64,000 nucleotides of DNA from Candidatus Staskawiczbacteria bacterium (GTDB lineage Bacteria; Patescibacteriota; Minisyncoccia; Minisyncoccales; Staskawiczbacteraceae). Location: positions 15,266 to 79,265 of the forward strand of contig JBAZYR010000001.1 of NCBI GenBank assembly GCA_041659225.1. The letters run 5' to 3'. Below are positions 44,735 to 62,744 of the stretch, one piece after another. Both the position numbers and the translations under genes were made by a program. Below the pieces are notes generated by a model. It was not told where the DNA came from, searched no databases, and was given only the letters and a program-made list of their open reading frames with translations. The number at the start of each line of letters is the position of its first letter. The stretch's first letter is position 1.

Positions 44735-47253
<2,519 letters not shown>

Positions 47254-47264
47254 TTTTTAAAGAT

Positions 47265-48002
47265 TTATGACACGACGAAAACAAAATCAAAATTTAAACT
47301 ATTAAACTTGCAGGGGCAAACAACAGCATAATCTCCCCTTTCCCAACCGGTATTATATGTAGCATGATTTGTCTCGCATCGCCAACATTTACCCGCGTTA
47401 CTGACTACGGGAAAGTCTCCACCTCCACCACCAAAATTCAGACAGCTAGCGACATTATTAGTGCCGCTGCAAGTAGTCCCTGTCTGGTTTTTTAATGCAT
47501 CGGCATTCTCGTCCGAATGGTTAACCCCATAATCTTCGGGTATCAAACCGTGGGCCGAGCAAGCATCGGAGCAACTTTCTCCTAGCCCTTTAATCGCTCC
47601 TGGAGTGTGCCCTCCGCACCAGCATTGGTTAGCTCCACTCACGCTATTATAGCGTAAATAGCAAGGGCAAAGCGAGGCTTCTAACCTCACTTTATATTCA
47701 TTCCCGATGGTAAGGCTAACTAAATTAGAAAAAATCTTGTGTTCGTCAAGGTCACCGTCGCCATCATTTTCGCAAACAGTCGAAGTAAGGGTAACACTGT
47801 TTAAAGGAACAGAACCTTCCATCACATACATTATAGTCCCGACAGGAAGACAAAAACTTGAACCATCAGAAATCTTTCGGGCGGTATCAAGCTGCAGACC
47901 GACAAAAACTGAAGTTGCCTCAACTTTCGTGATAGGGATAATAACCAAGACAGTAAAAAAGATAATGAAAGCGGATAAAGAATAAATGTTTTTTGACATC
48001 AC
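47265..48002 (-). CDS. Secreted Cys-rich protein (245 aa), paralogous to the C-terminal approx. 200 aa of the PA14-repeat giant protein
   Basis: Signal peptide. Shared blocks with 48432..52205: (S/P)(F/Y)CLPVGT; C-x-C ... (N/Q)CW ... G(E/Q)SC(S/A)xxCSxxG; C-terminal C(P/A)C...(L/P)NF(D/P)F(V/G)FVV. Confidence 0.6.
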   Translation of the reverse strand: MMSKNIYSLSAFIIFFTVLVIIPITKVEATSVFVGLQLDTARKISDGSSFCLPVGTIMYVMEGSVPLNSVTLTSTVCENDGDGDLDEHKIFSNLVSLTIGNEYKVRLEASLCPCYLRYNSVSGANQCWCGGHTPGAIKGLGESCSDACSAHGLIPEDYGVNHSDENADALKNQTGTTCSGTNNVASCLNFGGGGGDFPVVSNAGKCWRCETNHATYNTGWERGDYAVVCPCKFNSLNFDFVFVVS

Positions 48003-48020
48003 AATTTTGGATTTAAAAAA

Positions 48021-48386
48021 TTAAGGGTTCAATGGCTTAATAATAATTCTGTCTTCAGTAACAGCGTTGTTTTTATATAATATTTTCCCTTTTACCTCGA
48101 CTGTTTGACCGTCCTTCCATCCGACGCTTAAATAATATTCTTTAGACATAACCGGCCAAACCCAATAAACTTTCCCTTCTTCTGTCCTGATGGTTACTTT
48201 AGTACCGGACATATCAACTATTCCCCTGACAACGTCGGGATATTTATCGTCCTCCACATTATTTACTGGTTCTTGAGGGTATTGGTTATTAAAAACCGGG
48301 GAAAAATAATAATATCCTAGTGCTCCTGATAAAATACCTATCGCCAATAACAGGACACAAATAATAATTACATTTTTTTTCGCCAT
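48021..48386 (-). CDS. Hypothetical membrane-anchored small protein (121 aa)
   Basis: N-terminal TM helix (VIIICVLLLAIGILSGALGYYYF) and a beta-rich C-terminal part. Confidence 0.4.
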   Translation of the reverse strand: MAKKNVIIICVLLLAIGILSGALGYYYFSPVFNNQYPQEPVNNVEDDKYPDVVRGIVDMSGTKVTIRTEEGKVYWVWPVMSKEYYLSVGWKDGQTVEVKGKILYKNNAVTEDRIIIKPLNP

Positions 48387-48431
48387 ATTTATTGATTTTA
48401 ATTATACCAGACAACTTTTCCTGTTAAAATC

Positions 48432-51400
48432 CTATAGCCCGACGACAAACCCGAAGGGAAAATTAGGAATAATCCCATTGCAGGCACATATCGGGACGAA
48501 ATAGAAATCATCGGCATCGTAACCAATGGAACAATCACGCCACATTGGAGACACAGCAGATGCGCACGCGTACCAGCCATAACCATACCAATACCCGGCA
48601 ACAGGAGAACCATATTCCCCGGAGTCAAAGATGCACTCGTCACAAGCTATTCCGAAGTGCGCAATTGCACTGCAATTTAAATCTTCTTCACTGCAATCGG
48701 CTGTTTTATTTCCACCCTTATCAGAGCATACACCTGCACATGACTGTCCCCTGTTTCCCAAATACCAGCAATTGCCCCCAGAAGAGAATCCAGTACATTC
48801 AGTTGCAGTTGATATTTCCACAGTGTACAGATGGCCATAAGTTATCACCAACGAAGGCAAAAGACTTATCGTGCTGCTGGGAGCGCAAGTTGCAGCTGTT
48901 AAAGTTTTTTCCCTCAAGACCGTTGTTCCTTCTTTAAGAGTAATTTTTGTTCCGACTGGAAGACAATAGGGCGATCCGTTATCAGTTGCGCTGTCTACCT
49001 TTATCCGGAAAATGCTGTCAATACTCGCCCCAGGCGCTGGCGTGTTAGATATAGTGACAGTCGAACAAATAGTTTTTTGTCCCTGAGTTGCGCACTTGGA
49101 AGGTTTGGCTTTTATTGTCCCCGTTACTTCTGACGGAGCTATCCTTTGAGCGGGTTCCCCAGCAAAAACTGCTTTTAGCACAAGGTTGCCGAAGCTGGTA
49201 TTAGTCAAACCATTTTCAATAAAACTACGGGTTTTCATGGTGTTGATATCGCTAGGAAGTTCAGCATATGTTGCAGCCATTGCTGAAGGCAGATTAGAAA
49301 GACGGAAAGTATTCCAGCCACCCCCCGGAGGCTGGAACCAAAGAAGTGCAACCGCATTACCGGCATCATGCTCGTGCCTTACTATTAATCTATGCGGGCC
49401 TTTGGCTAAATAAACGGTTCCGCTATGGCTGTAGCAAGAGCAATAAGTATTTTCCCCATAAATTCCTGCTAATACAGATCCGTCTATTTCGACCTCCATG
49501 GCATCTTCTCCATCAACCGCAAAACCCCATGTGCCTTGCCCTGCATCGGTAATGTCCAGGATAGTGGAGAAATATAAATTGGAGTTGGCTGGGAAAGTAC
49601 CGAAGCTATTTTCGCCTATGTCGGTAATCAAACTCCTAGATATTAAATTTGAAGGGACATAATCATTAATCAATCCTGCGTGATCAGTGGGATGGCCAAC
49701 CGTCCCGCCATACTCTGCAAAAAGCACCTTGTTGATATTATCTATCGCGAGATAATTCTTGGGAACGTATGTTACGTGGGCTTCACCTGCAGAGCTCGTA
49801 GTTGAGGAGCCGATATTAAAGATATCGCTTTGGTTAACGAAAGTCACGATTTTATTAACCATTGCAGCTCCTGCGCCGTCTTTGAGAACAGCCGAAAGTA
49901 TGGATGATACCACACCATCTATATTAAGTGTGCTGGGAGTAACAGTGAACTGCTCGAGTATTGTCGGGGTCCCGCCTGATACCGCCACTGTTGCGGTCGA
50001 ACTTTCGGCAGGTAGAAGCGGAATTGCAAAGCCTTCATCTCCCGCATAGGTTGCCTTTAATGAAACGTTCCCGATACTAGTATTCTCGATTCCCTTTTTT
50101 ATAAAATTAAGATTCTTGATAACTGAATCGCCTAATAACTCTGCATATATTGAAGCCGCCCCGCTTCCCAAGCTAATACCACCAAAAACCTTCCACGAAC
50201 CATCTGCCGGAGACTTATAATAAAGAACAGCTGCCTCGTTCCCCGTTACATTTTGATGGCGTACAGTCACCCGATGAATTCCCGCTGACAATGTAATGGT
50301 GTTCGAGTGACTAGTACACGAACAAGTGGAATGTTGATACCAGCCGACTACGATATTGTCATCTATCTGAAGCTCTACCGCATCGTCGCCATCAACTGCA
50401 AACTGCCAGGACCCGGGTATGTGAACATCCATGATAGTAGTGAAGAAATAATTAGTATTATCTTGTGGGGGCACTACGCCTTCAAAAAGATCTATGGCAT
50501 CCCTCGTACCTTTATCCAATACAGTGGTATATGTATAGTCATTTATCAATGCGTTATGATCTGCAGGGTTCCCTGTATCGCCTGCATATTTCACATAGAG
50601 TATTTTCCCTCGGTTGGCATCTGATATGTAATGCTTGACTAAATAACTCAGACTGGCAACACCCGAGCCGTTAGTGACTGCCGAACCCATGTCGTTATTA
50701 TCGGTAACATTAAAAAAAGACACAGGTTGGCCGCTTATCAGGTTCCCATTTTGATACTTAAGGGTAGCTGAAAGATTTATTGGGTCGTCGATATAGGTTT
50801 CAATCGGAACAGTAAATGGATTTATTAGCGGACGCTGTCCTATAATAATTTCTAAGGGGGCTGTTGTTTCAGAGGGTGATATCCGAAGACTACTATTTCC
50901 GGCATAACTTGCCTTCAAGGTATGCGCCCCGAGATTCAAGATTGAAGAGTCCAAACCAGAAGCTATAAAACCAGGGGCTGTCAATTCAGAATCCGGTAAT
51001 AGTTTTGCATAGAGTTTCGCCTTTGTTCCTAGATTGGTACTAAAAAAATAAAATGAGGCATCTGTCGGGGATTTATAATAAAGGATCACGTCATTACCAC
51101 CAGTATCATTTTCGTGCCTCACAACCAGTCTATGCAGGCCTGCTGTCAGGTTTACCGATCCTGTATGTGTAAAACATGCGCAGCGACCATGATAACCATA
51201 CCAACCGACTACTACTGCCCCATCTATTTCTAACTCTACGCCATCATCGCCATCAATCGCGAAACTCCAAACACCAGCCTCCTTAACATCCATAATAGTC
51301 GTAAAATAATAGTTCTGATAGTTATTAGCTGTTGGACTTTCTATCCTTATTTCTGTCCTCAGCGCTTTTTCTATAAGAGAGGAATATTGATAATCTGCCA

Positions 51401-52205
51401 ACAATCCGCTATGATTTGTGGGATTTCCGCTTGTACCGCCATACTTTACATAAAGTATTGAATCCCCTAGGGCGCCGCTAGGCACAAAACTTGCCGTGGC
51501 GACACCATCAGTAGTAGTAGCTGATGCGATATCGACTCCATCCGTTTCATTTCTAAAATTTACCGTATCGCCAGTTGTTGGAATTAAATTTCCATCACCA
51601 TCCCTAATAGTAGCCGAAATAGTCATAACCTCTCTGAAATCGGCTTCAGCTTGAACATAAAATGGATTAATCTGAGATACTTGTCCCCCGCCAGAATTAA
51701 TCGTAGCGCAAATCCTATAATCAGAAATCGTAACACATCCTCCGCCTCCGGTTATTAAAAACTCTCCAGCGTTTCCTAGGTCAGCCTCAGCCCGGCCATC
51801 ATTGGTGTTGCCTAAATTATCGGAGGCAAAAACAAAAATCTTATACGCAGCCGGGGTAAAAGAGCTGACATCAACTCGGGCATTATATATACCGTCTCCT
51901 GCAACGTCATCATAGTTTCCTATTTGCCCGTCGTCATAAAGTATTGCACGCGCCATCTGGGCGCCGGTGCTCTTCCTTCTTATTACATAGCCGGCAGATG
52001 AAACGCCAGAAACATCGGTAATATTGGCAGTAACCTTTATTGTGCTATTTTGTGTTATAACCGTATTGGATGCAGCCGTGATGGTTGGCCAAGCATGTCC
52101 AGTGAGCCAGGGATATATTTCAAAACTGGGCTGTACGGCATATATCAAACCAGCTAAAGAAAGAGGGGCTAAAGGAATTAAAAAATATATATATTTATTC
52201 ATCAC
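48432..52205 (-). CDS. Large secreted protein (1257 aa) with three repeats, each a bacterial Ig-like domain followed by a PA14/GLEYA-like domain, plus a Cys-rich C-terminal domain; candidate adhesin
   Basis: Signal peptide MMNKYIYFLIPLAPLSLAGLIYA. Three copies of YFTTIMDV...GxWxFAVDGDDxVELxIDG.VVVGWY......C.C..H......L.AG.HRL.VRH.N..G...V.LYYKSP. An Ig-like unit precedes each copy (…ILYVKYGGTSGNPTNHSGLLADY…). The C-terminus is paralogous to 47265..48002. Confidence 0.7.
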   Translation of the reverse strand: MMNKYIYFLIPLAPLSLAGLIYAVQPSFEIYPWLTGHAWPTITAASNTVITQNSTIKVTANITDVSGVSSAGYVIRRKSTGAQMARAILYDDGQIGNYDDVAGDGIYNARVDVSSFTPAAYKIFVFASDNLGNTNDGRAEADLGNAGEFLITGGGGCVTISDYRICATINSGGGQVSQINPFYVQAEADFREVMTISATIRDGDGNLIPTTGDTVNFRNETDGVDIASATTTDGVATASFVPSGALGDSILYVKYGGTSGNPTNHSGLLADYQYSSLIEKALRTEIRIESPTANNYQNYYFTTIMDVKEAGVWSFAIDGDDGVELEIDGAVVVGWYGYHGRCACFTHTGSVNLTAGLHRLVVRHENDTGGNDVILYYKSPTDASFYFFSTNLGTKAKLYAKLLPDSELTAPGFIASGLDSSILNLGAHTLKASYAGNSSLRISPSETTAPLEIIIGQRPLINPFTVPIETYIDDPINLSATLKYQNGNLISGQPVSFFNVTDNNDMGSAVTNGSGVASLSYLVKHYISDANRGKILYVKYAGDTGNPADHNALINDYTYTTVLDKGTRDAIDLFEGVVPPQDNTNYFFTTIMDVHIPGSWQFAVDGDDAVELQIDDNIVVGWYQHSTCSCTSHSNTITLSAGIHRVTVRHQNVTGNEAAVLYYKSPADGSWKVFGGISLGSGAASIYAELLGDSVIKNLNFIKKGIENTSIGNVSLKATYAGDEGFAIPLLPAESSTATVAVSGGTPTILEQFTVTPSTLNIDGVVSSILSAVLKDGAGAAMVNKIVTFVNQSDIFNIGSSTTSSAGEAHVTYVPKNYLAIDNINKVLFAEYGGTVGHPTDHAGLINDYVPSNLISRSLITDIGENSFGTFPANSNLYFSTILDITDAGQGTWGFAVDGEDAMEVEIDGSVLAGIYGENTYCSCYSHSGTVYLAKGPHRLIVRHEHDAGNAVALLWFQPPGGGWNTFRLSNLPSAMAATYAELPSDINTMKTRSFIENGLTNTSFGNLVLKAVFAGEPAQRIAPSEVTGTIKAKPSKCATQGQKTICSTVTISNTPAPGASIDSIFRIKVDSATDNGSPYCLPVGTKITLKEGTTVLREKTLTAATCAPSSTISLLPSLVITYGHLYTVEISTATECTGFSSGGNCWYLGNRGQSCAGVCSDKGGNKTADCSEEDLNCSAIAHFGIACDECIFDSGEYGSPVAGYWYGYGWYACASAVSPMWRDCSIGYDADDFYFVPICACNGIIPNFPFGFVVGL

Positions 52206-52225: not shown

Positions 52226-53068
52226 TCATATTTTCAGCGCTTCGCTACATTTCCCAGCTAAATCGCAAGCCTTTATATCAACATCGTAAGCTCCTTCGGG
52301 GCCCTGCCAAAAATACTTGTATGTTATTGCATTAGGATCACCGGGGATTTCTTTGACCATGGTAAATGTCTGATCGAAAATTGCGCCGTTAGTAGCTGCG
52401 TCATATATCCTAGCCTGAGGATACCCGCCCACAATATCAATGTCATCCCTCGCATCAGAAATTTCAGCCCTAATTTCAATATCTACCCCAGAACTAGAAC
52501 TTATAGGAATAACCTCAGGCCATTCAATTAAAGGCGGGTGATTGTCTGGTGAAACCGCAGAAGCAGCGAAATTTAACTCAATGGCTCTAGTTATCTTTTT
52601 ATGCGCCCCATAGGACTTAATAGTCCCCGTTCCATCTTCATTAATATCAGTTACTACCCTGTATTGGTTATTGTTCACCACAAGGGAAGAATATGTAATT
52701 GTACAATCATTGCAGTCATCGTTCGCACAACGCGGGCCGACTTGTCCGCATACACCAGGGGTGGGATCGCAATCGAAATCCGTACAACTCGTGCAAATAT
52801 CGCAAAGACCGCGCGTTATACCCGCACCCGCCGGTATAACCTTTCTATCAAGAAAAAGCGCTTGCTCGATACCGATATCAGCGACGTATAAAGCTTTAAC
52901 TGATTCTCCCATTTCCCTCACCAATACAATTTCGCCCATTAGTATCACGCCGATCCCAAGAACCACAGCCAAGGATATGCCCATTATGAAAAAAGTAACC
53001 AGCATGGCAACGCCTTTTTCTCCGAATCCGTATGTTAAATTTAATTTTTGATTATTTCTTTTTTTCAT
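52226..53068 (-). CDS. Membrane-anchored protein with a PilX-like N-terminal helix and a Cys-rich knot; putative pilus-associated protein
   Basis: N-terminus EKGVAMLVTFFIMGISLAVVLGIGVILMGE resembles the PilX_N hydrophobic segment. Cys cluster CDICTSCTDFDCDPTPGVCGQVGPRCANDDCNDCT. First gene after the minor pilins, 18 nt upstream of the PA14 protein. Confidence 0.45.
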   Translation of the reverse strand: MKKRNNQKLNLTYGFGEKGVAMLVTFFIMGISLAVVLGIGVILMGEIVLVREMGESVKALYVADIGIEQALFLDRKVIPAGAGITRGLCDICTSCTDFDCDPTPGVCGQVGPRCANDDCNDCTITYSSLVVNNNQYRVVTDINEDGTGTIKSYGAHKKITRAIELNFAASAVSPDNHPPLIEWPEVIPISSSSGVDIEIRAEISDARDDIDIVGGYPQARIYDAATNGAIFDQTFTMVKEIPGDPNAITYKYFWQGPEGAYDVDIKACDLAGKCSEALKI

Positions 53069-53623
53069 CTATGAGCCGTCTAAGTTTCTTTGAGAAACTG
53101 TCGTCTGGATCTTTTTCTTTATTGAGTCTTCTGTGCCTATAGTGTAGAGTTCGGCGGAAATAACAACTCGGGGCTGAAGAAAATCAAGACTGCTTGCTCC
53201 GAAGGCCTTAAATTCAAAATAGGTTATTCCGATAGCGTTAGACATAAGCGGAATGGCTGAACCGCCATTCTTTATTTCCTTTAATTTTCCGTCTATATCT
53301 TTAAAAAACTCCTGGCAGGAATCGTTGTCTGAGTGATTGATAAACTTTACTCCCTTACCGTCGTGGGTAATTTCATAGTTGTCCCCTGCCGTAATGCAGT
53401 TGCCGCCATCGTCAACTTTGGCCATTCTTAAAGCTCTCCCCATATATTCAAAAACATAACTGGCCTGATTTAACAGTTCCTGCTGTTTTAATGTTCTTCT
53501 TTGTTGTTTTATTATGGAAACAAAAATATCGGTAGCGGTCATAAGAACTATCGAAAAGATAGCCGTAACTGCTATAAGCTCAATTAATGTAAATCCTTTT
53601 GATTCCATTGTTATTAACGCCAA
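53069..53623 (-). CDS. Minor pilin / pseudopilin (prepilin-type N-terminal cleavage/methylation domain)
   Basis: Prepilin-type N-terminal cleavage/methylation motif KGFTLIELIAVTAIFSIVL. Confidence 0.75.
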   Translation of the reverse strand: MALITMESKGFTLIELIAVTAIFSIVLMTATDIFVSIIKQQRRTLKQQELLNQASYVFEYMGRALRMAKVDDGGNCITAGDNYEITHDGKGVKFINHSDNDSCQEFFKDIDGKLKEIKNGGSAIPLMSNAIGITYFEFKAFGASSLDFLQPRVVISAELYTIGTEDSIKKKIQTTVSQRNLDGS

Positions 53624-54147
53624 TTATATAAATCAGTTTCTGCGACAAAACTATACCCAGTACCTCTGTCGTCCCAAGATACCTCTACCTCTACATTCAA
53701 AACTTCATCTTCATGACCAGGAACTTCTGTAACAGTAATTTTTCTCGTGAACCCTGTCGGAGTGATGCCGTTATACCGATAAAAACCATCTTCATCGATA
53801 TACAAAAATTCCCCAGGAATGATCCACGACTTTAGCGGGGTTGCCCCTCCCACGCCACTATTGGTGGTATAATCAGCTTCGCAACCAGAAGCACAGTTAA
53901 TAATTCCATTATCCCATGCGACCGAACCGTCCAGCCAGTTTGTATCCCGGATGTTCCTTACTATTTCAATGCCCTCCTGAGCTAGATAAGCGGCAGTTAA
54001 CTTTGCTGACGCAGTTGAAGTTACCATAGCCATTCGCGAGAAAATAGAATAGGTTCCAAGGATAGCAACGACTAAGATAAAAATGGCAACCACCATTTCC
54101 AGTATTGTAAATCCTTTGTTTTGTTCTTTTAAAAAAGATTTGCTCAT
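53614..54147 (-). CDS. Minor pilin / pseudopilin
   Basis: NKGFTILEMVVAIFILVVAILG; overlaps the downstream gene by 10 nt. Confidence 0.75.
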   Translation of the reverse strand: MSKSFLKEQNKGFTILEMVVAIFILVVAILGTYSIFSRMAMVTSTASAKLTAAYLAQEGIEIVRNIRDTNWLDGSVAWDNGIINCASGCEADYTTNSGVGGATPLKSWIIPGEFLYIDEDGFYRYNGITPTGFTRKITVTEVPGHEDEVLNVEVEVSWDDRGTGYSFVAETDLYNWR

Positions 54148-54150
54148 CCT

Positions 54151-55122
54151 TTACCTTACCTCTATCATGCCCACCTTATTAACTGCGATGGTCATGGTTT
54201 TATTAAGATTTCTCTCCAAAGCTAGAACTATCTCGATCTCGGTGCTGCCAGGATCCATCCATTTTATCGTTGTATCTGGATTTGGCGGGGCAAAATTAAT
54301 ACTTACCTTCTGCGGAACCGAATTATTAATTTGCTTTATAACCACGCCTTTTTCTCCGATAGATATATTTTCAACAATACAATCGGCTGCTGTGTAATAC
54401 CCATAACATAAGTCCGGCAGGGTCGTGCAGTCAGGCGATCCGTCACTCTCTGTATCGGCATATAAGATATAATTTTTATTGGTAAGCGTTGCAGGGTTGA
54501 TATATATGCCGTAGCCATAAGCCAGTATAGCTGGCGGCTCAAGCTGCATTGGCTCGTACAGCGGATGTCCTCCTTGTGGCCCGCTAGGACCGCCGCTAAC
54601 CACAACAGAACATTGTTTGGTTGCAATAATTGTTCCGCTTGATCTGCTTACGGTTAAAGTCGTCGAATAATTCCCGGCGCTTGCAAAAGAGGTCGAGCAT
54701 GTAAGGCCGGTGCCGACGCAATCGCCTGACCAGGTGTATAAATAGTTTCCTTGTCCTCCTTCTGTTACAAAAGAAAATGTTGTTGACTCGTTGATTTGTA
54801 CCGGATTAGGCGAAGACGTGCACGAAACAATAACAATCTGCGGAGGTGGAGGATCATCTTTTGCTATATGCCCCCCAAGCGCGAGATTACTCAAAGATGC
54901 AAAATGCAAAGGCGCATAAGACAGACAACTGTCCACTTGAGTTGAGGACATTGCCATTGCCTGCGCCTTCCTTATATCCAGCACCAACTTATGCCCCGCT
55001 CTTCTTAGGGCGAGCTGGTCCCTTATCTCGCTGAAGTTATTAATCACCATACTCGCAAATAGCGTGATGATGAAAATAACGGCCACCATTTCGAGCAGAG
55101 TGAAACCTTTGTTGTTATTCAT
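54151..55122 (-). CDS. Minor pilin with a large C-terminal domain including a PKD/Ig-like module
   Basis: The true start is the ATG at 55120-55122 (MNNNKGFTLLEMVAVIFIITLFAS), which overlaps the pilD stop (ATGA). PKD-like segment NESTTFSFVTEGGQGNYLYTWSGDCVGTGLTCSTSFASAGNYSTTLTV. Confidence 0.7.
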   Translation of the reverse strand: MNNNKGFTLLEMVAVIFIITLFASMVINNFSEIRDQLALRRAGHKLVLDIRKAQAMAMSSTQVDSCLSYAPLHFASLSNLALGGHIAKDDPPPPQIVIVSCTSSPNPVQINESTTFSFVTEGGQGNYLYTWSGDCVGTGLTCSTSFASAGNYSTTLTVSRSSGTIIATKQCSVVVSGGPSGPQGGHPLYEPMQLEPPAILAYGYGIYINPATLTNKNYILYADTESDGSPDCTTLPDLCYGYYTAADCIVENISIGEKGVVIKQINNSVPQKVSINFAPPNPDTTIKWMDPGSTEIEIVLALERNLNKTMTIAVNKVGMIEVR

Positions 55123-55877
55123 GTTAATAAATTTAAATACCAGTTTATTAAATTTTGTCCAAAAAATATCGCTAAAAATGTTCCGGTAATTAAAAATGGA
55201 CCGAAAGGTATTTCGCTTTTCATTCCTTTCTTTCCTGCGATAATTAATCCTATCCCTATTATACCACCAATAAAGAAGGCTAAGAATAAAGCAGCCAGTA
55301 TGTTCGGGAAGCCGAGAATCAAACCCATCAAAAAAACGAGCTTTACGTCGCCAAAACCCAGCCATTTTCCTTTAGACACGAGAAAAATCAATAGGAACAA
55401 TCCAGAAGCTATAATGGCGCTAGATAAAGTTGAAAACTGTCCAAGAACGAAAAACTGTAAATCAAAAATCAAGGCTAAAAAAATAGCCGGAAAAACGACC
55501 CTGTCCGGAATAATATAGTGCTTGAGGTCATAGACGAAAATAATAATGGAGAGGGTGGAAATTAGAATTAAAAATTCAAACTCTAAATCCACCTGAAAAC
55601 CCGAATGCCAAAAAACTAATAAAAATAATGCTGCAGTGGCGAGCTCTACAATCGGATATTGTATTGATATCCCTTTCTTACAATAACGACACTTACCCGA
55701 TAAAGAGATATAACTTAAAACCGGCACTAAATCGCGCCAGCTTAGCTGGTGATGGCACGCGGGGCAATAGGATCTGCCCCTTAAAAAGCTTTCCTTCTTT
55801 TCGAGGCGAAAAATAACACAGTTTAAAAAACTACCTACGATTAAGCCGAGAAGGAGAAGATAAATAAGAGTAAGCAT
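55119..55877 (-). CDS. pilD: Prepilin peptidase (A24 family, PilD)
   Basis: N-terminal Cys4 box (FLNCVIFRL...YCPACHHQL...CRYCKK), polytopic membrane domain with catalytic Asp regions. Confidence 0.85.
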   Translation of the reverse strand: MLTLIYLLLLGLIVGSFLNCVIFRLEKKESFLRGRSYCPACHHQLSWRDLVPVLSYISLSGKCRYCKKGISIQYPIVELATAALFLLVFWHSGFQVDLEFEFLILISTLSIIIFVYDLKHYIIPDRVVFPAIFLALIFDLQFFVLGQFSTLSSAIIASGLFLLIFLVSKGKWLGFGDVKLVFLMGLILGFPNILAALFLAFFIGGIIGIGLIIAGKKGMKSEIPFGPFLITGTFLAIFFGQNLINWYLNLLT

Positions 55878-55938
55878 TGACTAATTCTACCAGAAATTTA
55901 TCTATTGGAGAATATATAACAAATGAATTAAAGACAAC

Positions 55939-56346
55939 TCAAGGGGGGCATACACTGCCTAAAGTCATCCACTGCTGCCACGTTATCTGTTTTCTAACGC
56001 CGGTACTATCCAAACACCACGACCCTGCAGTAGGATAGACATACTGCACAGCAACAACGTACGTGTTCTCTGCGCTAGAACATTTACCGTTTTTCCCCGT
56101 AGCGGCTTTAGCTGCATTATATGCTTTTAGAACTTCTGTATCACCACAAACCCCAACGTAGGTAGAACCGCTGCTATAAAATATTTCGGCGGCAGCGGGG
56201 ATTGCATTCATATTCCCTTTGGCAGCGGCGTTTTTAGCTTTATCACGAGCCGAACTTACGCTAGTGAATATAATGGAAGCCAAAATACCGATAATAGCGA
56301 TTACGACCAATAACTCAATTAATGTAAAACCTTTGGACCTGTTCAT
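55939..56346 (-). CDS. Type IV major pilin (PilA-like) copy 1
   Basis: MNRSKGFTLIELLVVIAIIGILASIIF followed by a small globular domain of about 100 aa with a C-terminal Cys pair. Confidence 0.85.
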   Translation of the reverse strand: MNRSKGFTLIELLVVIAIIGILASIIFTSVSSARDKAKNAAAKGNMNAIPAAAEIFYSSGSTYVGVCGDTEVLKAYNAAKAATGKNGKCSSAENTYVVAVQYVYPTAGSWCLDSTGVRKQITWQQWMTLGSVCPP

Positions 56347-56382
56347 TGTTTTTATTTTATCCCATTATCCCTTTGACGTAAA

Positions 56383-56417
56383 CAAAAACCACCCACATCA
56401 ATCGCGGGTGGTTTTTT
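56383..56417 (-). terminator. Intrinsic (bidirectional) terminator after pilin copy 2, preceding copy 1
   Basis: aaaaaCCACCCacatcaatcgcGGGTGGtttttt. Confidence 0.65.
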
Positions 56418-56431
56418 AGCTTGAGAAGACG

Positions 56432-56884
56432 TTACGGCGCGACATTACCATCACAATCATAGTCTCCCGTTGTACAATCCGAACCGCAAGCTGTAGTTAG
56501 AGAAGTTTTGTGTGCCGCCGAATCAACGCAATAATATTGAGCAGGATTCGGGCCCATTAATTTCACACAAGCACACCATTTATCGGTTGTAGCAGCATTA
56601 CTGTAGTCGGTACCGGCAGTACCAGAAGACTGTGCCCAGGCTGCGTTATACGCTTTTAGGGGATCTGTCCCAGCTGCGAAAATAGCGGCATAACTAAGGG
56701 GAGAGGCGCTGTCGTATATATTTTCTGCTGCAGCAGGAATCATGGAGAGGTTCGCCTTTATATTAGCGTCCCTTGCTTTAGCTCTAGCTGCATTAACATT
56801 TACAAACACGATGGAAGCTAAAATACCTATGATAGCGATTACGACTAATAACTCAATTAATGTAAAACCTCTTGATTTATTCAT
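56432..56884 (-). CDS. Type IV major pilin (PilA-like) copy 2
   Basis: MNKSRGFTLIELLVVIAIIGILASIVF; the N-terminal 30 aa are nearly identical to copy 1, and the C-terminal domain has diverged. Confidence 0.85.
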   Translation of the reverse strand: MNKSRGFTLIELLVVIAIIGILASIVFVNVNAARAKARDANIKANLSMIPAAAENIYDSASPLSYAAIFAAGTDPLKAYNAAWAQSSGTAGTDYSNAATTDKWCACVKLMGPNPAQYYCVDSAAHKTSLTTACGSDCTTGDYDCDGNVAP

Positions 56885-57010
56885 AATATTAAAATTTAAA
56901 ATACTTTTTACCTTTTACTAAATAGGTTCGACCTTTAAGGTCAAGTTAAGACCATTGATTACTTAATTTTAAACTATTAAGGAACGCCGTCAAGTGGAAA
57001 AGTATTATTA

Positions 57011-58219
57011 CTACACAGTATTCAACATTCCGTACATTGGAGACAACACCGAAATAGCTAATATGGCTACGCCTACTCCCAAGAAAACTATCAGAACCGG
57101 CTCAATCAAAGTCATAAAGTTATCTACTATCGCTTCAATCTCTTTTTTGTAAAAACCAACAATCTCCGCTAATGTTTTATCAAGCTTTCCTGTCTCCTCC
57201 CCAACTTTTATCATTTGAATGATAAACGGGGGAACCTGGTTCGGATATCTGACTAAAACAGAACTTATCTTCTCTCCCTCAGAAACCTCTTTTTCGGTTT
57301 CAGCAATAATTCCCTTGTACACATAATTATTGATGGTGTCCTTCGTTATCTCCAAAGCACGAACGATAGGCAGGCCGGCCATGATTAAAGTTGAAAGATT
57401 CTCGGCAAAGTTAACAATGTAGTTCTTCTGTAAAAATCCTCCGACAAGCGGAAGCTTGATTAATGTTACATCAAGAACCTTTTTACCTTCTTTGGTTTTG
57501 AAGTAGTAAATTAAGAAAACTATAAACCCTGCGGCGGCTATCAAGAGGAACAACCCGTAATGAGCAAACAGGTTGTAAAAACCTATAAGCATTTTTGTGG
57601 AAAAGGGAATATCACCGCCGGCATCCTCCAAAATTGTGATTAACTTGGGCATTACCATGGTCATAACCACAGCAATAACTATTACCAACGCAGATAAAAC
57701 TACTGCCGGGTAAATCATCGCACCTTTTATCTTAGACTTAATATCGTGCTGTCTTTCCAAATACGTACTAAGATGGTAAAGGGATTCAGATATCTTTCCC
57801 GAAGCTTCCCCGGATTTAATCAGGCTGATATAGAAAAAGCCAAAGGTCTCGGGACAGGCAGCAAGCGCGTCAGAAAGTGTATTTCCCTCTTCAATGAGCT
57901 TTGAAACAATCATAATTTTCTCCCGAAAAACCTTTTTACTGGTTTGGGAAGCCAGACTGGATAAGCTTTCAATAATCGGCACCCGCGAATCAATCATAAC
58001 CGCAAGTTGGCGGGAAAAGATAGAGAGATCTTTTTGAGATACCTTTTTCTTGAAAATTCCGCCCTTGAAAACATCAAACGGTGTTTTTTCCTCTTTTAAC
58101 GAGGTGACGAAAATATTGTATTTCTGCAAAAGAGCAGCAGCTGCTTCTTGGGAAGATGCTTCAATGGTACCGGTTTCAATTTCACCTCTTTGGCTTCTGG
58201 CTTGATAAATAAACTTCAT
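57011..58219 (-). CDS. pilC: Type IV pilus platform protein PilC (GspF family)
   Basis: Two GspF repeats, three TM segments, 402 aa. Confidence 0.85.
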   Translation of the reverse strand: MKFIYQARSQRGEIETGTIEASSQEAAAALLQKYNIFVTSLKEEKTPFDVFKGGIFKKKVSQKDLSIFSRQLAVMIDSRVPIIESLSSLASQTSKKVFREKIMIVSKLIEEGNTLSDALAACPETFGFFYISLIKSGEASGKISESLYHLSTYLERQHDIKSKIKGAMIYPAVVLSALVIVIAVVMTMVMPKLITILEDAGGDIPFSTKMLIGFYNLFAHYGLFLLIAAAGFIVFLIYYFKTKEGKKVLDVTLIKLPLVGGFLQKNYIVNFAENLSTLIMAGLPIVRALEITKDTINNYVYKGIIAETEKEVSEGEKISSVLVRYPNQVPPFIIQMIKVGEETGKLDKTLAEIVGFYKKEIEAIVDNFMTLIEPVLIVFLGVGVAILAISVLSPMYGMLNTV

Positions 58220-58224
58220 ATGGG

Positions 58225-59289
58225 TTACCTCAGGAGATTCTTTATCTCAAACGGGTTCAAGGAATAATCAATGGCGTTTTTAAGGGTAATCTCTTTCTTT
58301 CTCACTAAATCAGCTAAATATCTATCCGAAGAAACCATCCCTTCGCGAGAAGAAGTATCAATAATTGCCGGTATTTCATGGGTCTTGTTTTCACGGATAA
58401 GGTTAGCGGTTGCTGTGTTGCTAACCATAACCTCACAGGCAGGAATAAAACCGCCTCTTATCCTGGGTATTAATCTTTGACTGACTATGCCCAAAAGCGA
58501 ACCTGATAATTGATACCTTATCTGATTCTGCTGCTCAGCAGGGAAAACGTCGACAATACGGTGGATCGTCTGGGCGGCAGAATTAGTATGCAAGGTGGCG
58601 AAGATTAAATGGCCCGTTTCTGCCGCAGTAATAGCAGTAGAAATAGTTTCAAGGTCCCTCATCTCTCCCACCATGATTACGTCGAGATTTTGACGGAAAG
58701 CTGCCCGAAGCGCTGATGAAAAACTTATAGTATCTCGATAGACCTCCCTCTGATCAATAATTGCCCGGTCATCCTCGTAAACATATTCGATAGGATCTTC
58801 AATCGTGATTATGTGCACCGGCCTCGTATGGTTTATCTCGTCAACTAGAGCAGCTAAAGTAGTGGTCTTGCCTTGGCTTGAAGCGCCTGTAATCAAGACT
58901 AAACCCTGGGTTTTGGAGGTGAACTCGTGCAAAACAGGAGGAAGGATCAGCTCTTCAATCGTTTTAATCCTGGCAGGAATCATACGCAAATCCAAGCTTA
59001 TGGTCTCCTGCTGAAAAAAACAGTTAATTCTGAACCGCGCCTTACCCTCGAAGTTATACGAAAAATCTATTTCTTTCTCTTCAAAGAATTTCTTGTATTG
59101 CATGGTGTTCATCAGCAGGCGGGCCAAGGCCTCTGAGTCAGCAGGTTCAACTACTTTTTCTTTAGCTAAGGGTATCAATTGCCCGGTTAGCCTAAGGGTG
59201 GGCTTGTGACCGACGGAAAGATGCAAATCAGAGGCTTCTTCCTCGACAATTGTGACCAATAGCTTCTTTAGATATGCGGGATAATCCAT
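58225..59289 (-). CDS. pilT: Twitching-motility/retraction ATPase PilT
   Basis: Walker A GASSQGKTTTLAA, Asp box, His box, 354 aa. Confidence 0.85.
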   Translation of the reverse strand: MDYPAYLKKLLVTIVEEEASDLHLSVGHKPTLRLTGQLIPLAKEKVVEPADSEALARLLMNTMQYKKFFEEKEIDFSYNFEGKARFRINCFFQQETISLDLRMIPARIKTIEELILPPVLHEFTSKTQGLVLITGASSQGKTTTLAALVDEINHTRPVHIITIEDPIEYVYEDDRAIIDQREVYRDTISFSSALRAAFRQNLDVIMVGEMRDLETISTAITAAETGHLIFATLHTNSAAQTIHRIVDVFPAEQQNQIRYQLSGSLLGIVSQRLIPRIRGGFIPACEVMVSNTATANLIRENKTHEIPAIIDTSSREGMVSSDRYLADLVRKKEITLKNAIDYSLNPFEIKNLLR

Positions 59290-59307
59290 AATATTTTAAT
59301 TAATAGT

Positions 59308-61032
59308 TTATTGCTCCTCAGTCGCTCGGGTAATTTCCTCCACAGTAGTTTCTCCTGCTAAAATCTTCAAAATTCCCTCCTGCTCCATTGTGAGCATACC
59401 TTGTTTCTTGGCTAGCTTAGAAATCGCATCTTCGGTAGCATCTTTTAATATGATCTTAGCTAGCTCATCAGTCATCGGCAATACCTCGAAGAGACCGATT
59501 CTTCCGGCATATCCTTTAAAGTTGCACTTATCGCATCCTTTCGGTTCGTATATAGAGAAGCCCTGTCCTATTTTCACCTCATTCTGGATGTTCAAAGGCA
59601 TACTTTTTACTCTTTCTACAATATATTTTCTAATCGGTTCTGGCGGAGTAATCTTCTTTCTGCAGCTCGTACAAAGAGTCCTGACTAGCCTTTGAGAAAT
59701 CGCTACGCCTAAAGTATATGGTATTAGGAACGGCCTTACGCCCATATCAATCAATCTCGGCACCACTCCGATGGCAGAATTGGTATGCAATGTTGAAAGA
59801 ACGATATGTCCGGTAAGTGCAGCGTGCGTTACGAGGTTAGCTGTTTCTTCGTCACGGACCTCACCAACCATGATAACATTCGGATCTTGTCTAAGAATTT
59901 GTCTCAAGCCTTGGGCAAAAGTATAACCAATGTCCGGTTTTACCTGAGATTGGTTTACTCCGGGGATAGAATACTCGATAGGGTCTTCAATCGTTACGAT
60001 ATTAACGCTTTCGTTATTCATAAATCGCAGAAGCGCATAAAGCGTTGTAGACTTACCTGACCCGGTAGGGCCTGTGGCCAAAATCATTCCATACGGTTTT
60101 TTAATGGCGGCTTTTATCATTTCAAAGTTCCTTCCCCGCAGACCCATAGCCTCGTAATCTTTCAGCCCCTCGCCTGAATCAAGAACTCTGATTTCAATTT
60201 TTTCTCCGTTAAGACAAGGATAAGTAGCAACTCTAAAGTCGACGTTGTCTTCCCCTACTTTTGTTGAAAACCTCCCGTCTTGAGGAACGCGGTTCTCGTC
60301 AATCTTCAAATTAGCAAGAATTTTTATTCTTGTAACAATCGATTGATGAACACTGATGGGTAAAAACAAGGTGGGGTATAAAATACCGTCGATACGGAAG
60401 CGAATCTTTAATTTATCTTTTATTGGTTCAATATGTATATCTGAAGCGTTAGATTCTAAGGCGTGCCGGAGAATAGAAAAAACCATTTTGATGATAGGAG
60501 CTTCGTCGCCTATTGCCTTCTCTACCTCGGATTTTTCTTCTGCAAATTCCCTGATTTCTTTTTTAGATTTTTCAAACTCAACCAGCACTTTGCCTGCCTC
60601 GCTTTTTAAATTCCTATGTTGCTTTAAAAGTTTATTAAAATCACTGATGGTTATTAAAGAAATTAAATACTCAAATTTTCCCTGCCTGCTTGAAAATCTC
60701 AAAGCGTCCTGGGCTGAGGTATTCTCAGGATAGACCATTCCGATTTCCACAACATCTCCCTTTTTAGACAAAGGAATCATTTTATACGTCGCCGTTGACT
60801 CTTCCGGGATTAGCTCTAATACCTCTTTCGGTACGTCATCAATAGAAACCTTTTTAAATGGTATTTTAAAAATCTCAGCCTTTGCCTTGAATAAAACATC
60901 TTCTGGAATAATTCCCTTCTCGGTGATTATTTCCTCGGCGGTTTTACCCGTCTTCTTAACATCGTATTCTATCTCGGCCTGCTTTTTCTCTTCCAATACG
61001 CCTCTTTCAATTAACTTTTGAATAAAATTCAT
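59308..61032 (-). CDS. pilB: Type IV pilus assembly ATPase PilB (GspE family)
   Basis: GSPII N-domain, Walker A GPTGSGKSTTL, and a tetracysteine motif (CTSC...CDKC). Confidence 0.9.
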   Translation of the reverse strand: MNFIQKLIERGVLEEKKQAEIEYDVKKTGKTAEEIITEKGIIPEDVLFKAKAEIFKIPFKKVSIDDVPKEVLELIPEESTATYKMIPLSKKGDVVEIGMVYPENTSAQDALRFSSRQGKFEYLISLITISDFNKLLKQHRNLKSEAGKVLVEFEKSKKEIREFAEEKSEVEKAIGDEAPIIKMVFSILRHALESNASDIHIEPIKDKLKIRFRIDGILYPTLFLPISVHQSIVTRIKILANLKIDENRVPQDGRFSTKVGEDNVDFRVATYPCLNGEKIEIRVLDSGEGLKDYEAMGLRGRNFEMIKAAIKKPYGMILATGPTGSGKSTTLYALLRFMNNESVNIVTIEDPIEYSIPGVNQSQVKPDIGYTFAQGLRQILRQDPNVIMVGEVRDEETANLVTHAALTGHIVLSTLHTNSAIGVVPRLIDMGVRPFLIPYTLGVAISQRLVRTLCTSCRKKITPPEPIRKYIVERVKSMPLNIQNEVKIGQGFSIYEPKGCDKCNFKGYAGRIGLFEVLPMTDELAKIILKDATEDAISKLAKKQGMLTMEQEGILKILAGETTVEEITRATEEQ

Positions 61033-61061
61033 CGTAGAATATTATATTAATAATTTATCTC

Positions 61062-61499
61062 TTAGGGTCTTCTGGGAGGAGTAACCGGCGGAGGCGGTGC
61101 TGTTTCGTAATACGGGGTAAACGGATTGATCCTTCCTCCTGTTATTTCCTCCAGGGTAATCGACGACAATCCAAGCTCCGTTAATGTTTTCATAGCTTCT
61201 TCTTCTGAAATAGAAGATATCTTGCCAGCCTTTGCTTCCCCTTTTGAATTTTTACCGGTATAGCTGAATTCTTTTCTCAACTCCGGGAGGAAATCTAATT
61301 TTGTTATCTTATCTGATTTCAAAACATCAAAATTAATTCTTATTTCCGGCGCCTGAAAAACCTGCTCTATCGGAGTTTCTTTTGATTTTGACAGAAAAAC
61401 ACTAAGACTTATTAAGGTCAGGATAATGACAAAAAACCCGACTATGCTAACAATTAGCGTCTTCTGCCTTTCTTTTGGTGATATGAAAACTATTGCCAT
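61062..61499 (-). CDS. Hypothetical pilus-operon protein (N-terminal TM, Pro-rich C-terminus), possible PilP-like component
   Basis: Its position between pilO and pilB, one TM helix, and a C-terminal PPPPVTPPRRP. Confidence 0.4.
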   Translation of the reverse strand: MAIVFISPKERQKTLIVSIVGFFVIILTLISLSVFLSKSKETPIEQVFQAPEIRINFDVLKSDKITKLDFLPELRKEFSYTGKNSKGEAKAGKISSISEEEAMKTLTELGLSSITLEEITGGRINPFTPYYETAPPPPVTPPRRP

Positions 61500-61513
61500 T
61501 TTCTTACCGGTTG

Positions 61514-62065
61514 CTAATAGGAATAAACTTTAATGCTTAATGAAATTGGATAAGTTAACTCCGTCATAAAAGATGTTGAAGACGGAGGAGTCACGCTAAA
61601 GGAAAAATTGTCTCCCTCGATTATACGTGAAGACTTCTCTAAAGATGCAAGGAACCGAACAAGCGCAGGGTATGATCCGAACAGTTCAATGTTCAAGCTA
61701 GCTTCTTTCACATTCGTATCAACTCCGACCGACGAAGATTTGCTTACACTTATTCTCCTCACGATTATCCCGCTTTCCAATCCTTTTTGGTATAGGAAAT
61801 CGACTAAAGGGGCGATGGAAAGTTTATCGGGCAAGGCAGTATCAATTTTCTTTAAAGCATCCTGGTATAGCATCAACTCTCTGTAAGCACTAGTTACCTC
61901 TATAAAATACGCATTCTTGCCCTGAAACTCTGCCTCTTTTTTACCAATTTCCGTCAAAAGGCCCTGAAATTGTTGATACTTCGGCAAGACTACATAAAAA
62001 GCCAATACCAAAACAACAATTAGCAGAACTGCGGTAGAAATTGGTTTATTTATCCTTAAATTCAT
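61514..62065 (-). CDS. pilO: Type IV pilus assembly protein PilO-like
   Basis: N-terminal TM, a coiled-coil and a C-terminal alpha/beta domain. Its position in the operon follows the pilN-like gene. Confidence 0.55.
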   Translation of the reverse strand: MNLRINKPISTAVLLIVVLVLAFYVVLPKYQQFQGLLTEIGKKEAEFQGKNAYFIEVTSAYRELMLYQDALKKIDTALPDKLSIAPLVDFLYQKGLESGIIVRRISVSKSSSVGVDTNVKEASLNIELFGSYPALVRFLASLEKSSRIIEGDNFSFSVTPPSSTSFMTELTYPISLSIKVYSY

Positions 62066-62075
62066 TCTAATTATC

Positions 62076-62687: not shown

Positions 62688-62744
62688 ACCTTTAAATATA
62701 TGATTTGATTACTTCATTATACAATATACAGCTTCCAATCAAAA

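What the first reader, a model, noticed from the sequence alone, without database searches (positions are those of the whole stretch)
47265..48650. Shared novel Cys-rich C-terminal domain ending in a hydrophobic F-x-F-x-FVV tail
The last ~200 aa of the PA14 protein and the whole mature 245-aa protein align block by block: CLPVGT, C-x-C, (N/Q)CW…G(E/Q)SC(S/A)xxCS, and terminal NFPFGFVVGL / LNFDFVFVVS. The conserved aromatic/hydrophobic extreme C-terminus resembles a sorting or anchoring signal, or a beta-strand complementation tag, but matches none I know (not LPXTG, not a Por/T9SS CTD, not PEP-CTERM). It could be a lineage-specific surface-attachment or pilus-docking domain.
Basis: seen in the sequence. 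Interest (0 to 1): 0.7.

Follow-up and report, generated by a model that had tools for sequence, protein, structure and literature searches.

The report
Pilus-locus Cys-rich module with β-strand tail
Two neighbouring secreted proteins of an ultrasmall (CPR) bacterium share a real, conserved, about 200-residue module encoded at the end of a type IV pilus gene cluster, and its hydrophobic tail is most likely the module's last β-strand, not a sorting signal.

Summary
The last 203 aa of the 1257-aa PA14 protein and the mature 245-aa protein are homologous (BLASTP E=1e-7; 0/1000 shuffles reach the score). An exhaustive HMMER search found 16 more homologues among 1.84 billion representatives. All named ones are Patescibacteria or Parcubacteria. 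Every full-length (complete-ORF) homologue that has the N-terminal half also keeps the tail, G-T-[FY]-x-[FY]-x-F-[TV].

The module has three parts:
- an Ig-like β-sandwich;
- a disulfide-rich domain with CxxxC on a helix and CxC on the last strand;
- the tail, 12-17 aa after the CxC.

The tail occurs only together with the sandwich. AlphaFold2 models it as a confident in-sheet strand. It lacks every feature of a sorting signal.

The genes sit just downstream of the minor-pilin genes in five genomes. In other genomes the Cys-rich domain is fused to pilins. So this is probably a pilus-associated binding module. Trans docking of the tail into the PilX-like pilin, as PilY1 does, remains a live alternative (about 0.25).

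The parts
48432..52205 (-). 1257-aa secreted 'big' protein. It has a signal peptide, a conserved N-terminal domain, three Big/PA14 repeat units and the C-terminal shared module. It sits directly after the PilX-like gene, separated by 20 nt.
   Evidence: PA14 26.1 bits against a cutoff of 24; Big_1, Big_3_5; N- and C-terminal blocks conserved with P0003
48798..49043 (-). Big protein, module part 1: Ig-like β-sandwich (aa 1055-1136). Contains CLPVGT and the probable C27-C53 disulfide.
48480..48797 (-). Big protein, module part 2: disulfide-rich domain (aa 1137-1242), running C..G…CWYLG..GQSC..VC…ICAC.
   Evidence: (MGAT5 C-domain E=0.0035)
48435..48479 (-). Big protein tail, NGIIPNFPFGFVVGL (aa 1243-1257).
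   Evidence: AF2 strand E194-200, pLDDT about 86
47265..48002 (-). 245-aa 'small' protein: signal peptide (…KVEA|TS) plus the module only.
   Evidence: (P0001, NCBI 'Candidatus Staskawiczbacteria' hypothetical protein)
47670..47912 (-). Small protein, Ig-like sandwich part.
   Evidence: alignments A1 and A3
47310..47669 (-). Small protein, disulfide-rich domain (CPC…QCWCGG…GESCSDAC…VVCPC). It lacks the C117-C124 pair.
47268..47309 (-). Small protein tail, KFNSLNFDFVFVVS.
48021..48386 (-). 121-aa protein with an N-terminal TM segment. It is a conserved cassette partner upstream of the small protein.
46834..47253 (-). 139-aa protein with an N-terminal TM segment. It is a conserved cassette partner downstream of the small protein.
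52226..53068 (-). PilX/PilK-like apical minor pilin. It has no Glu at +5 ('EKG|VAMLV'). It is homologous to the pilin part of the L087 fusion protein.
   Evidence: (E=5e-28); PilX_N hit on the L087 homologue
53069..55131 (-). Three minor pilins with prepilin N-methylation motifs (184 aa, 177 aa, and about 325 aa with a PKD domain).
55119..63812 (-). Rest of the type IV pilus cluster: PilD, two major pilins, PilC, PilT, PilB, PilO, PilN-like and PilM.

Best explanation
The shared region is a self-contained extracellular module of about 200 aa. It is restricted to a small group of Patescibacteria (Staskawiczbacteria/Parcubacteria-like).

Anatomy. An Ig-like β-sandwich is followed by a disulfide-knotted domain. 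In that domain a CxxxC helix is probably stapled to a CxC strand, in the style of the CSαβ motif. The chain then finishes with one more β-strand, G-T-[FY]-x-[FY]-x-F-[TV].

The tail. I read it as the last structural strand of the module. It carries three aromatic side chains on one face and folds back in cis. It most probably closes the sandwich, or glues sandwich and Cys-rich domain together, so that the Cys-rich domain behaves like an insertion. It is not a sorting signal.

Function. The module is secreted by Sec and is encoded at the distal end of the type IV pilus operon. It follows the PilV/W/X-like minor pilins, either free (small protein) or grafted onto a PA14 adhesin (big protein). 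The Cys-rich domain is the likely ligand-binding head. It would be displayed by or near the pilus for attachment to other cells.

Shown: homology, family, tail conservation, domain boundaries, synteny, pilin fusions, and absence of sorting-signal features.

Inferred: the cis pairing of the tail (AF2 model only), the disulfide connectivity (from Cys co-variation), the binding function, and the pilus association of the protein itself.
For: Homology and family.

Tail and sandwich go together:
- All 18 complete sandwich-bearing members have the tail. These are the window big and small proteins, P0003-P0016, P0018 and P0019. P0014 has a divergent version.
- P0017 (two Cys-rich domains, no sandwich) lacks the tail. 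So does the L087 pilin fusion.
- Most wide-family ORFs also lack it: 78 of 95 complete ORFs stop 1-3 aa after the CxC.

Structure model:
- The AF2 model has mean pLDDT 78.9. The tail is DSSP strand E194-200, in a block with pLDDT about 86, so it is hydrogen-bonded in cis.
- Helix 102-106 carries the CxxxC. Strand 181-188 carries the CxC.

Cysteine patterns:
- Cys co-loss or co-gain pairs are 27-53, 83-92, 117-124 and 146-163.
- The invariant Cys are 102, 106, 186 and 188.

Other features of the tail:
- One face of the tail is aromatic. The other face is polar or variable.
- The conserved neighbouring 139-aa proteins also end in a conserved hydrophobic strand. Such ends are therefore generic.

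Cys-rich domain relatives:
- hhalign to the wide family: 98.4%.
- BLASTP to L087: E=2e-9.
- PDB profile hit to the GnT-V C-domain: E=0.0035.
- Foldseek probability up to 0.99.

Pilus link:
- The operon layout is conserved in the window and in L119, L121 and L123. L116 and L122 preserve only the small-protein cassette next to LigA.
- L087 fuses the PilX-like pilin to the Cys-rich domain.
- L048, L055 and L076 are pilin fusions.
- In L117 a modular pilin lies next to P0014.
Against: - The partner strand of the tail could not be read, because no model coordinates were available. AF2 is also known to self-complement donor strands.
- The five syntenic genomes are related (LigA-RodA-RpoB follow in all of them). 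Part of the synteny may therefore be inheritance rather than functional coupling.
- Only 8 of 93 wide-family loci have pilin genes nearby.
- No binding function has been shown for any member, including the GnT-V C-domain (PMC6107550).
- After signal-peptide cleavage the small protein has no visible anchor. A purely structural tail leaves its retention unexplained.
Confidence: 0.5

Rival explanations
1. PilY1-type docking strand. The last ~10 residues are donated in trans to complete the β-sheet of the PilX/PilK-like apical minor pilin (52226-53068). This would mount the small protein, and in this genome also the PA14 adhesin, on the pilus tip and license pilus assembly. PilC/PilY1, MshQ and CpaL work this way.
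For: - Ellison et al. (PMC13533445) show that the extreme C-terminal ~10 aa of PilC/PilY1 add a β-strand to PilK-family pilins and are necessary for tip retention. They predict the same for non-homologous large proteins encoded right after pilIJK.
- The big gene starts 20 nt after the PilX-like gene in the window, and 2 nt after it in L119.
- The PilX-like protein lacks Glu5.
- The tail is always at the extreme C-terminus.
- Both window paralogues share an unusual F-V-V ending, whereas their orthologues have F-T-A/T. This hints at co-adaptation to one partner.
- The secreted small protein otherwise has no anchor.
- The L087 pilin::Cys-domain fusion acts as a Rosetta stone.
Against: - AF2 places the tail confidently in a sheet in cis.
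- The big proteins at the PilY1 position in L121 and L123 share the N-terminal domain but end differently (…PPPPPYISP, …EEPFLNPLFW). The C-terminal strand is therefore not a conserved property of the PilY1-position protein.
- There is no Pfam PilC/PilY1 β-propeller.
- No complex prediction could be run.
Confidence: 0.25
2. The tail docks the secreted module onto one of the two conserved co-encoded membrane-anchored small proteins (121 aa and 139 aa) by β-strand augmentation. This would tether it to the cell surface independently of the pilus.
For: The three-gene cassette (TM protein, small protein, TM protein) is conserved in six loci: the window, L116, L119, L121, L122 and L123. L122 lacks the downstream TM gene. 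The small protein lacks an anchor of its own.
Against: There is no direct evidence of interaction. The cassette proteins have no recognisable domains. The synteny may be inherited.
Confidence: 0.1
3. C-terminal sorting or anchoring signal: a sortase, exosortase or rhombosortase substrate, a T9SS CTD, or an OMP β-signal.
For: It has an extreme C-terminal position and aromatic, hydrophobic character. Four wide-family proteins do carry a real TM plus Arg-rich anchor after the CxC. This shows that this position can host sorting signals.
Against: - The tail is 12-17 aa, with at most about 8 hydrophobic residues. It has no basic cluster and no LPXTG, PEP or GG motif.
- In most members it reads G-T-F-N-F-T-F-T-A-S, which is too polar for a membrane span.
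- There are no sorting-domain HMM hits.
- It is predicted as a β-strand inside the fold.
- From general knowledge, CPR cells are not known to have an outer membrane or a T9SS.
Confidence: 0.04
4. Chance similarity of two Cys-rich, low-complexity tails, with no real domain.
For: The second half alone is only modestly significant: 8/1000 shuffles reach its score.
Against: The whole-module score was never reached in 1000 shuffles. Sixteen independent homologues share conserved non-Cys positions: T32, S60, G70, Y73, W93, F199.
Confidence: 0.01

Closest known systems
C-terminal domain of animal N-acetylglucosaminyltransferase V (GnT-V/MGAT5, residues G628-L741; PDB 5ZIB, 6YJQ and others)
   Same: - It shares the 'GQSC..VC' CxxxC motif, an equivalent central Cys, and a terminal 'R-V-C-P-C' CxC strand.
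- It is about 100 aa, disulfide-rich (5 disulfides) and lies at the extreme C-terminus.
- It is the only significant PDB profile hit (E=0.0035).
   Different: - It is a eukaryotic Golgi enzyme accessory domain. In Pfam it is buried inside PF15024.
- No 'CWY.G' strand aligned.
- No Ig-like sandwich precedes it and no FxFxF tail follows it.
- Its function is unassigned (PMC6107550).
PilC/PilY1 tip adhesins (and MshQ, CpaL) with a C-terminal β-strand that adds to PilK/PilX/GspK (PMC13533445)
   Same: - It is a large Sec-secreted non-pilin protein encoded immediately after pilV-W-X-like genes.
- Its ends are conserved and its middle is variable.
- It has a ~10-aa β-strand at the extreme C-terminus.
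- The PilX-like partner lacks Glu5.
   Different: - There is no PilY1 β-propeller domain and no sequence homology.
- The tail is predicted to pair in cis.
- Big proteins in sister genomes lack the tail.
- The interaction is untested.
Modular type IV pilins: pilins with a functional module grafted at the C-terminus, such as Streptococcus sanguinis PilB/PilC (from general knowledge)
   Same: In L087, L048, L055 and L076 the same Cys-rich domain is grafted onto the C-terminus of pilin-like proteins.
   Different: In the window the module is not fused to a pilin. It is carried by separate secreted proteins.
Cysteine-stabilised αβ (CSαβ) motif of defensins and scorpion toxins
   Same: CxxxC lies on a helix and CxC on a β-strand, and all four Cys are invariant. 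Weak PDB profile hits to scorpion α-like toxins (E=3.5).
   Different: The domain is much larger, about 105 aa with up to 6-7 disulfides. The connectivity has not been determined, and the E-values are not significant.
Tāpirins of Caldicellulosiruptor (adhesins encoded downstream of a type IV pilus locus)
   Same: They have the same genomic logic. The L087 N-terminus gives a weak hit to NF051896 tapirin (E=4.3e-5, far below the cutoff).
   Different: There is no homology to the module. Tāpirins are β-helix cellulose binders (from general knowledge).

Membership tests
C-terminal sorting signals (LPXTG, PEP-CTERM, MYXO-CTERM, GlyGly-CTERM, PGF-CTERM) | Signature motif followed by a TM helix of about 20 aa and a basic cluster at the C-terminus | tested here: not met
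   The tails are 12-17 aa with no basic residues and at most about 8 hydrophobic residues. No HMM hits in Pfam or NCBIfam.
T9SS C-terminal domain | An uninterrupted Ig-like CTD of about 80 aa at the C-terminus, in organisms that have a T9SS | tested here: not met
PilC/PilY1 | C-terminal β-propeller domain (Pfam Neisseria_PilC) | tested here: not met
   No such Pfam hit at E<=1.
PilC/PilY1 | Gene immediately downstream of pilV-pilW-pilX homologues | tested here: met
PilC/PilY1 | Extreme C-terminal ~10 aa add a β-strand to the PilK/PilX sheet | not testable with these tools
   This needs a multimer prediction or an experiment. The monomer model pairs the tail in cis.
GnT-V C-terminal-like Cys-rich domain (unnamed) | G-Q-S-C-x-x-V-C helix motif … R-x-C-x-C terminal strand, about 100 aa, with significant profile similarity | tested here: met
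Widespread prokaryotic 'CWY.G..GQSC..VC…R.C.C' domain | Same motif, same boundaries (C.G upstream, stop 1-3 aa after the CxC), and profile similarity | tested here: inconclusive
   hhalign gives 98.4%, E=4e-15, but the wide set was selected by the motif. With the motif and CxC masked, E=0.022 for all sequences and 0.0017 for the CPR/DPANN-like subset. BLASTP to L087 gives E=2e-9 and extends past the motif.
CSαβ motif | CxxxC on an α-helix disulfide-bonded to CxC on a β-strand | tested here: inconclusive
   The pattern and the predicted secondary structure fit. The disulfide connectivity has not been determined.
Ig-like β-sandwich | Two-sheet sandwich with structural similarity to solved Ig-like domains | tested here: met
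PA14 domain (big protein only) | Pfam PF07691 above its gathering score | tested here: met
   26.1 bits against a cutoff of 24, E=8.3e-6.
Chaperone-usher donor-strand complementation | Incomplete Ig-fold pilin plus a periplasmic chaperone and an outer-membrane usher | not tested
   No chaperone or usher was seen among the annotated neighbours. The whole window was not scanned.

The most novel reading that the evidence does not exclude
The FxFxF tail is a functional analogue of the PilC/PilY1 Cβ peptide in a completely non-homologous protein. A minimal 200-aa tip protein of CPR bacteria (and, in this genome, a PA14 adhesin carrying a copy of it) would plug its last strand into the Glu5-less PilX-like pilin. 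Its GnT-V-C-like disulfide-rich head would then be the part of the pilus tip that recognises the host cell. That same head domain probably recurs in predatory and episymbiotic lineages such as Myxococcota, Bdellovibrionota, Micavibrio and DPANN.
Probability: 0.25. Interest if true: 0.75.

Novelty: new variant of a known kind. Interest (0 to 1): 0.45.

Why it matters
Type IV pili are the best-supported host-attachment device of CPR/Patescibacteria episymbionts. What sits on their tips and binds the host is unknown. This family gives a concrete, conserved candidate encoded at the PilY1 position of the pilus operon, with a simple experiment attached (tail deletion, PilX binding).

The work also exposes a probably widespread disulfide-rich extracellular domain that no library names. 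It seems to be present in predatory bacteria, some archaea and CPR. Its only solved relative is the functionally unassigned C-terminal domain of the cancer-relevant glycosyltransferase GnT-V. A function found on either side would inform the other.

Tried and rejected
- Word-seeded homologue searches with either protein found nothing beyond self. With the family profile they found only 3 proteins.
I replaced it with a degenerate DNA pattern.
- The AFDB50 fold library was unavailable.
- The AF2 run with only two sequences was useless (pLDDT 42.8).
- Foldseek against the PDB gave no hit below E=0.07.
- The Myxo-type wide profile A5 finds nothing in the PDB.
- Pfam scans of all family members at E<=10 gave only scattered noise. 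My recollection that the sandwich looks like a CarboxypepD_reg/Cna-B domain was therefore not confirmed.
- The PilX-like C-terminal domain is not detectably similar to the big protein's N-terminal domain.
- An OMP β-signal was rejected: the protein is not a β-barrel and the lineage is not known to have an outer membrane.
- Sorting signals were rejected from the sequence itself.
- I could not obtain model coordinates. The strand that pairs with the tail is therefore unknown.
Full report
**What is there.** The window comes from a CPR bacterium. The small protein is identical to an NCBI 'Candidatus Staskawiczbacteria' hypothetical protein. All relevant genes lie on the minus strand in a tight array:
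- the PilM, PilN-like, PilO, PilB, PilT, PilC genes, two major pilins and PilD;
- three minor pilins with N-methylation motifs;
- a PilX-like protein;
- 20 nt later, the 1257-aa PA14 protein (48432-52205);
- a 121-aa TM protein, the 245-aa protein (47265-48002) and a 139-aa TM protein;
- LigA, RodA and RpoB.

**Check of the observation.**
- BLASTP of small versus big gives E=1e-7 over the first half of the module.
- A Smith-Waterman score of 126 for the whole module was never reached by 1000 shuffles (mean 37.6, sd 6.5).
- The C-terminal half alone scores 45 against 27.9±5.1, reached by 8/1000 shuffles.
- The stated coordinates are partly off. The module in the big protein is 48435-49043, and the span given also includes the unrelated 121-aa ORF.

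**The family.**
- Word-seeded searches failed.
- An exhaustive HMMER search of 1.84 billion representatives with the two-sequence profile found 16 further proteins, with E from 8.5e-21 to 3.6e-5.
- Most are 190-280-aa proteins made of a signal peptide plus the module. One (P0003, 477 aa) is the orthologue of the big protein: it shares both the N-terminal domain (E=4e-14) and the C-terminal module (E=2e-33), with a different middle.
- Named members are Parcubacteria or Patescibacteria.
- Invariant positions include T32, S60, G70, Y73, C102, C106, C186, C188 and F199. Near-invariant positions include W93 and F197.
- The tail starts about 6 residues after the CxC, reads G-T-[FY]-x-[FY]-x-F-[TV]-A and ends 0-4 residues later.

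**Anatomy.**
- With the 15-sequence alignment, AF2 gives mean pLDDT 78.9.
- Residues 83-188 form a mixed α/β disulfide-rich domain. The CxxxC lies on helix 102-106 and the CxC on strand 181-188.
- The tail is strand 194-200, in a block with pLDDT about 86.
- Cys presence and absence co-vary for 27-53, 83-92, 117-124 and 146-163. The four invariant Cys form a CxxxC/CxC pair reminiscent of the CSαβ staple.

**The Cys-rich domain is probably not lineage-specific.**
- A degenerate DNA pattern for CW[YFW]xGxxx[QE]xCxx[VIA]CxxxG matched 113 stretches of GTDB genomes. My own calculation puts chance at roughly 9 matches.
- In 93 loci the match lies in an ORF with the same architecture.
- These loci are mostly Myxococcota, Bdellovibrionota, Micavibrio and Binatia. 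They also include Gammaproteobacteria, Auribacterota and archaea.
- In 78 of 95 complete ORFs the protein stops 1-3 residues after the CxC.
- Neither Pfam nor NCBIfam names the domain.
- hhalign between the CPR subdomain and this set gives 98.4%. The set was selected by the motif, though. With the motif and CxC masked, the signal is weak: E=0.022 for all sequences and 0.0017 for the CPR/DPANN-like subset. I therefore call this link probable, not proven.
- An unbiased PDB profile search with a domain-only alignment finds one significant target, the C-terminal domain of GnT-V/MGAT5 (E=0.0035). GQSC..VC and RVCPC are aligned.
- That domain (G628-L741, five disulfides) has no assigned function (PMC6107550). 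In Pfam it is buried in PF15024.

**What the tail is.**
- It lacks everything that defines a sorting signal.
- It occurs in all 18 complete members that have the sandwich. It is absent from every Cys-rich domain without a sandwich. These are P0017, the L087 pilin fusion and the wide family.
- One face of the tail is aromatic. The other face is polar or variable.
- The model puts the tail in a sheet in cis.
- The simplest reading is that it is the final structural strand of the module, running back from the Cys-rich domain to the sandwich.

**Pilus link.**
- The order 'minor pilins, PilX-like, big protein, ~120-150-aa TM protein, small family member, ~118-168-aa TM protein, LigA' recurs in L119, L121 and L123. 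It recurs partly in L116 and L122.
- These genomes are related, so this alone is moderate evidence.
- Independent evidence comes from fusions. In L087 a homologue of the window's PilX-like protein (E=5e-28) carries the Cys-rich domain (E=2e-9) as its C-terminus, directly before LigA.
- L048, L055 and L076 are pilin::Cys-domain fusions.
- In L117 a 625-aa modular pilin precedes P0014.

**The docking alternative.**
- Ellison et al. (PMC13533445) show that the last ~10 residues of PilC/PilY1 add a β-strand in trans to the Glu5-less PilK/PilX pilin. They predict the same for non-homologous proteins encoded after pilIJK.
- The window fits this picture: the PilX-like protein lacks Glu5, the big gene is adjacent, and the strand is at the extreme C-terminus.
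- Both window paralogues also share an unusual F-V-V ending, which their orthologues lack.
- Against it: the model pairs the tail in cis. The big proteins in L121 and L123 keep the N-terminal domain but end quite differently. I could not run a complex prediction.
- I give this alternative 0.25.

**Verdict.** The module is real, conserved and unannotated. The tail is a β-strand, not a sorting signal. The module is probably a pilus-associated binding head. Its Cys-rich half links CPR, predators and the GnT-V C-domain.

Noticed in passing
L002-L114 (GTDB loci), e.g. L022:7420-7998, L097:1419-1802, L011:653-1234: A widespread unannotated Cys-rich domain, almost always at the extreme C-terminus. 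It reads C.G…CW[YF].G..G[QE]SC..VC…G…R.C.C followed by stop. It is concentrated in Myxococcota, Bdellovibrionota, Micavibrio and Binatia, often after Asp/Thr- or Pro/Thr-rich linkers. There is no Pfam or NCBIfam hit.
   Followed up: partly
window 48021-48386 and 46834-47253; L119, L121, L122, L123, L116: Two small proteins with N-terminal TM segments always flank the small family member. The downstream one ends in a conserved 'K[AV][FY]GL[MI]L..AG'. No domain is recognised and the function is unknown.
   Followed up: partly
window 48432-52205 N-terminus; L119:10001-11434; L123:3507-5177: The large proteins that follow the PilX-like gene share a conserved N-terminal domain ('G.GPSFE[IV]…', weak choice-of-anchor-X hit). 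Their middles and C-termini vary: PA14 repeats, Cys-rich repeats, or DUF2341.
   Followed up: partly
L002, L024, L054, L085: In four wide-family proteins the CxC is followed by a hydrophobic TM segment and an Arg-rich end. This looks like a PEP-CTERM-type anchor. It shows that this position can host a true sorting signal.
   Followed up: no
L005:771-2309 (uncultured archaeon): The Cys-rich domain sits at the N-terminus of a long protein. It is followed by repeated Cys-rich units and TTTLPFNATT tandem repeats.
   Followed up: no
window 54151-55365: The first minor pilin carries a PKD domain. It is a modular minor pilin, and the listed ORF start is probably too far upstream.
   Followed up: no
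L116:71-796: A large upstream protein has repeated 'GYAWSENGGW[LI]NF' units and ends '…GENIGWISLTF'. No Pfam hit.
   Followed up: no
L087:2920-3741: The N-terminus of the PilX-like::Cys-domain fusion gives weak hits to tapirin (NF051896) and GspK (NF037980).
   Followed up: no
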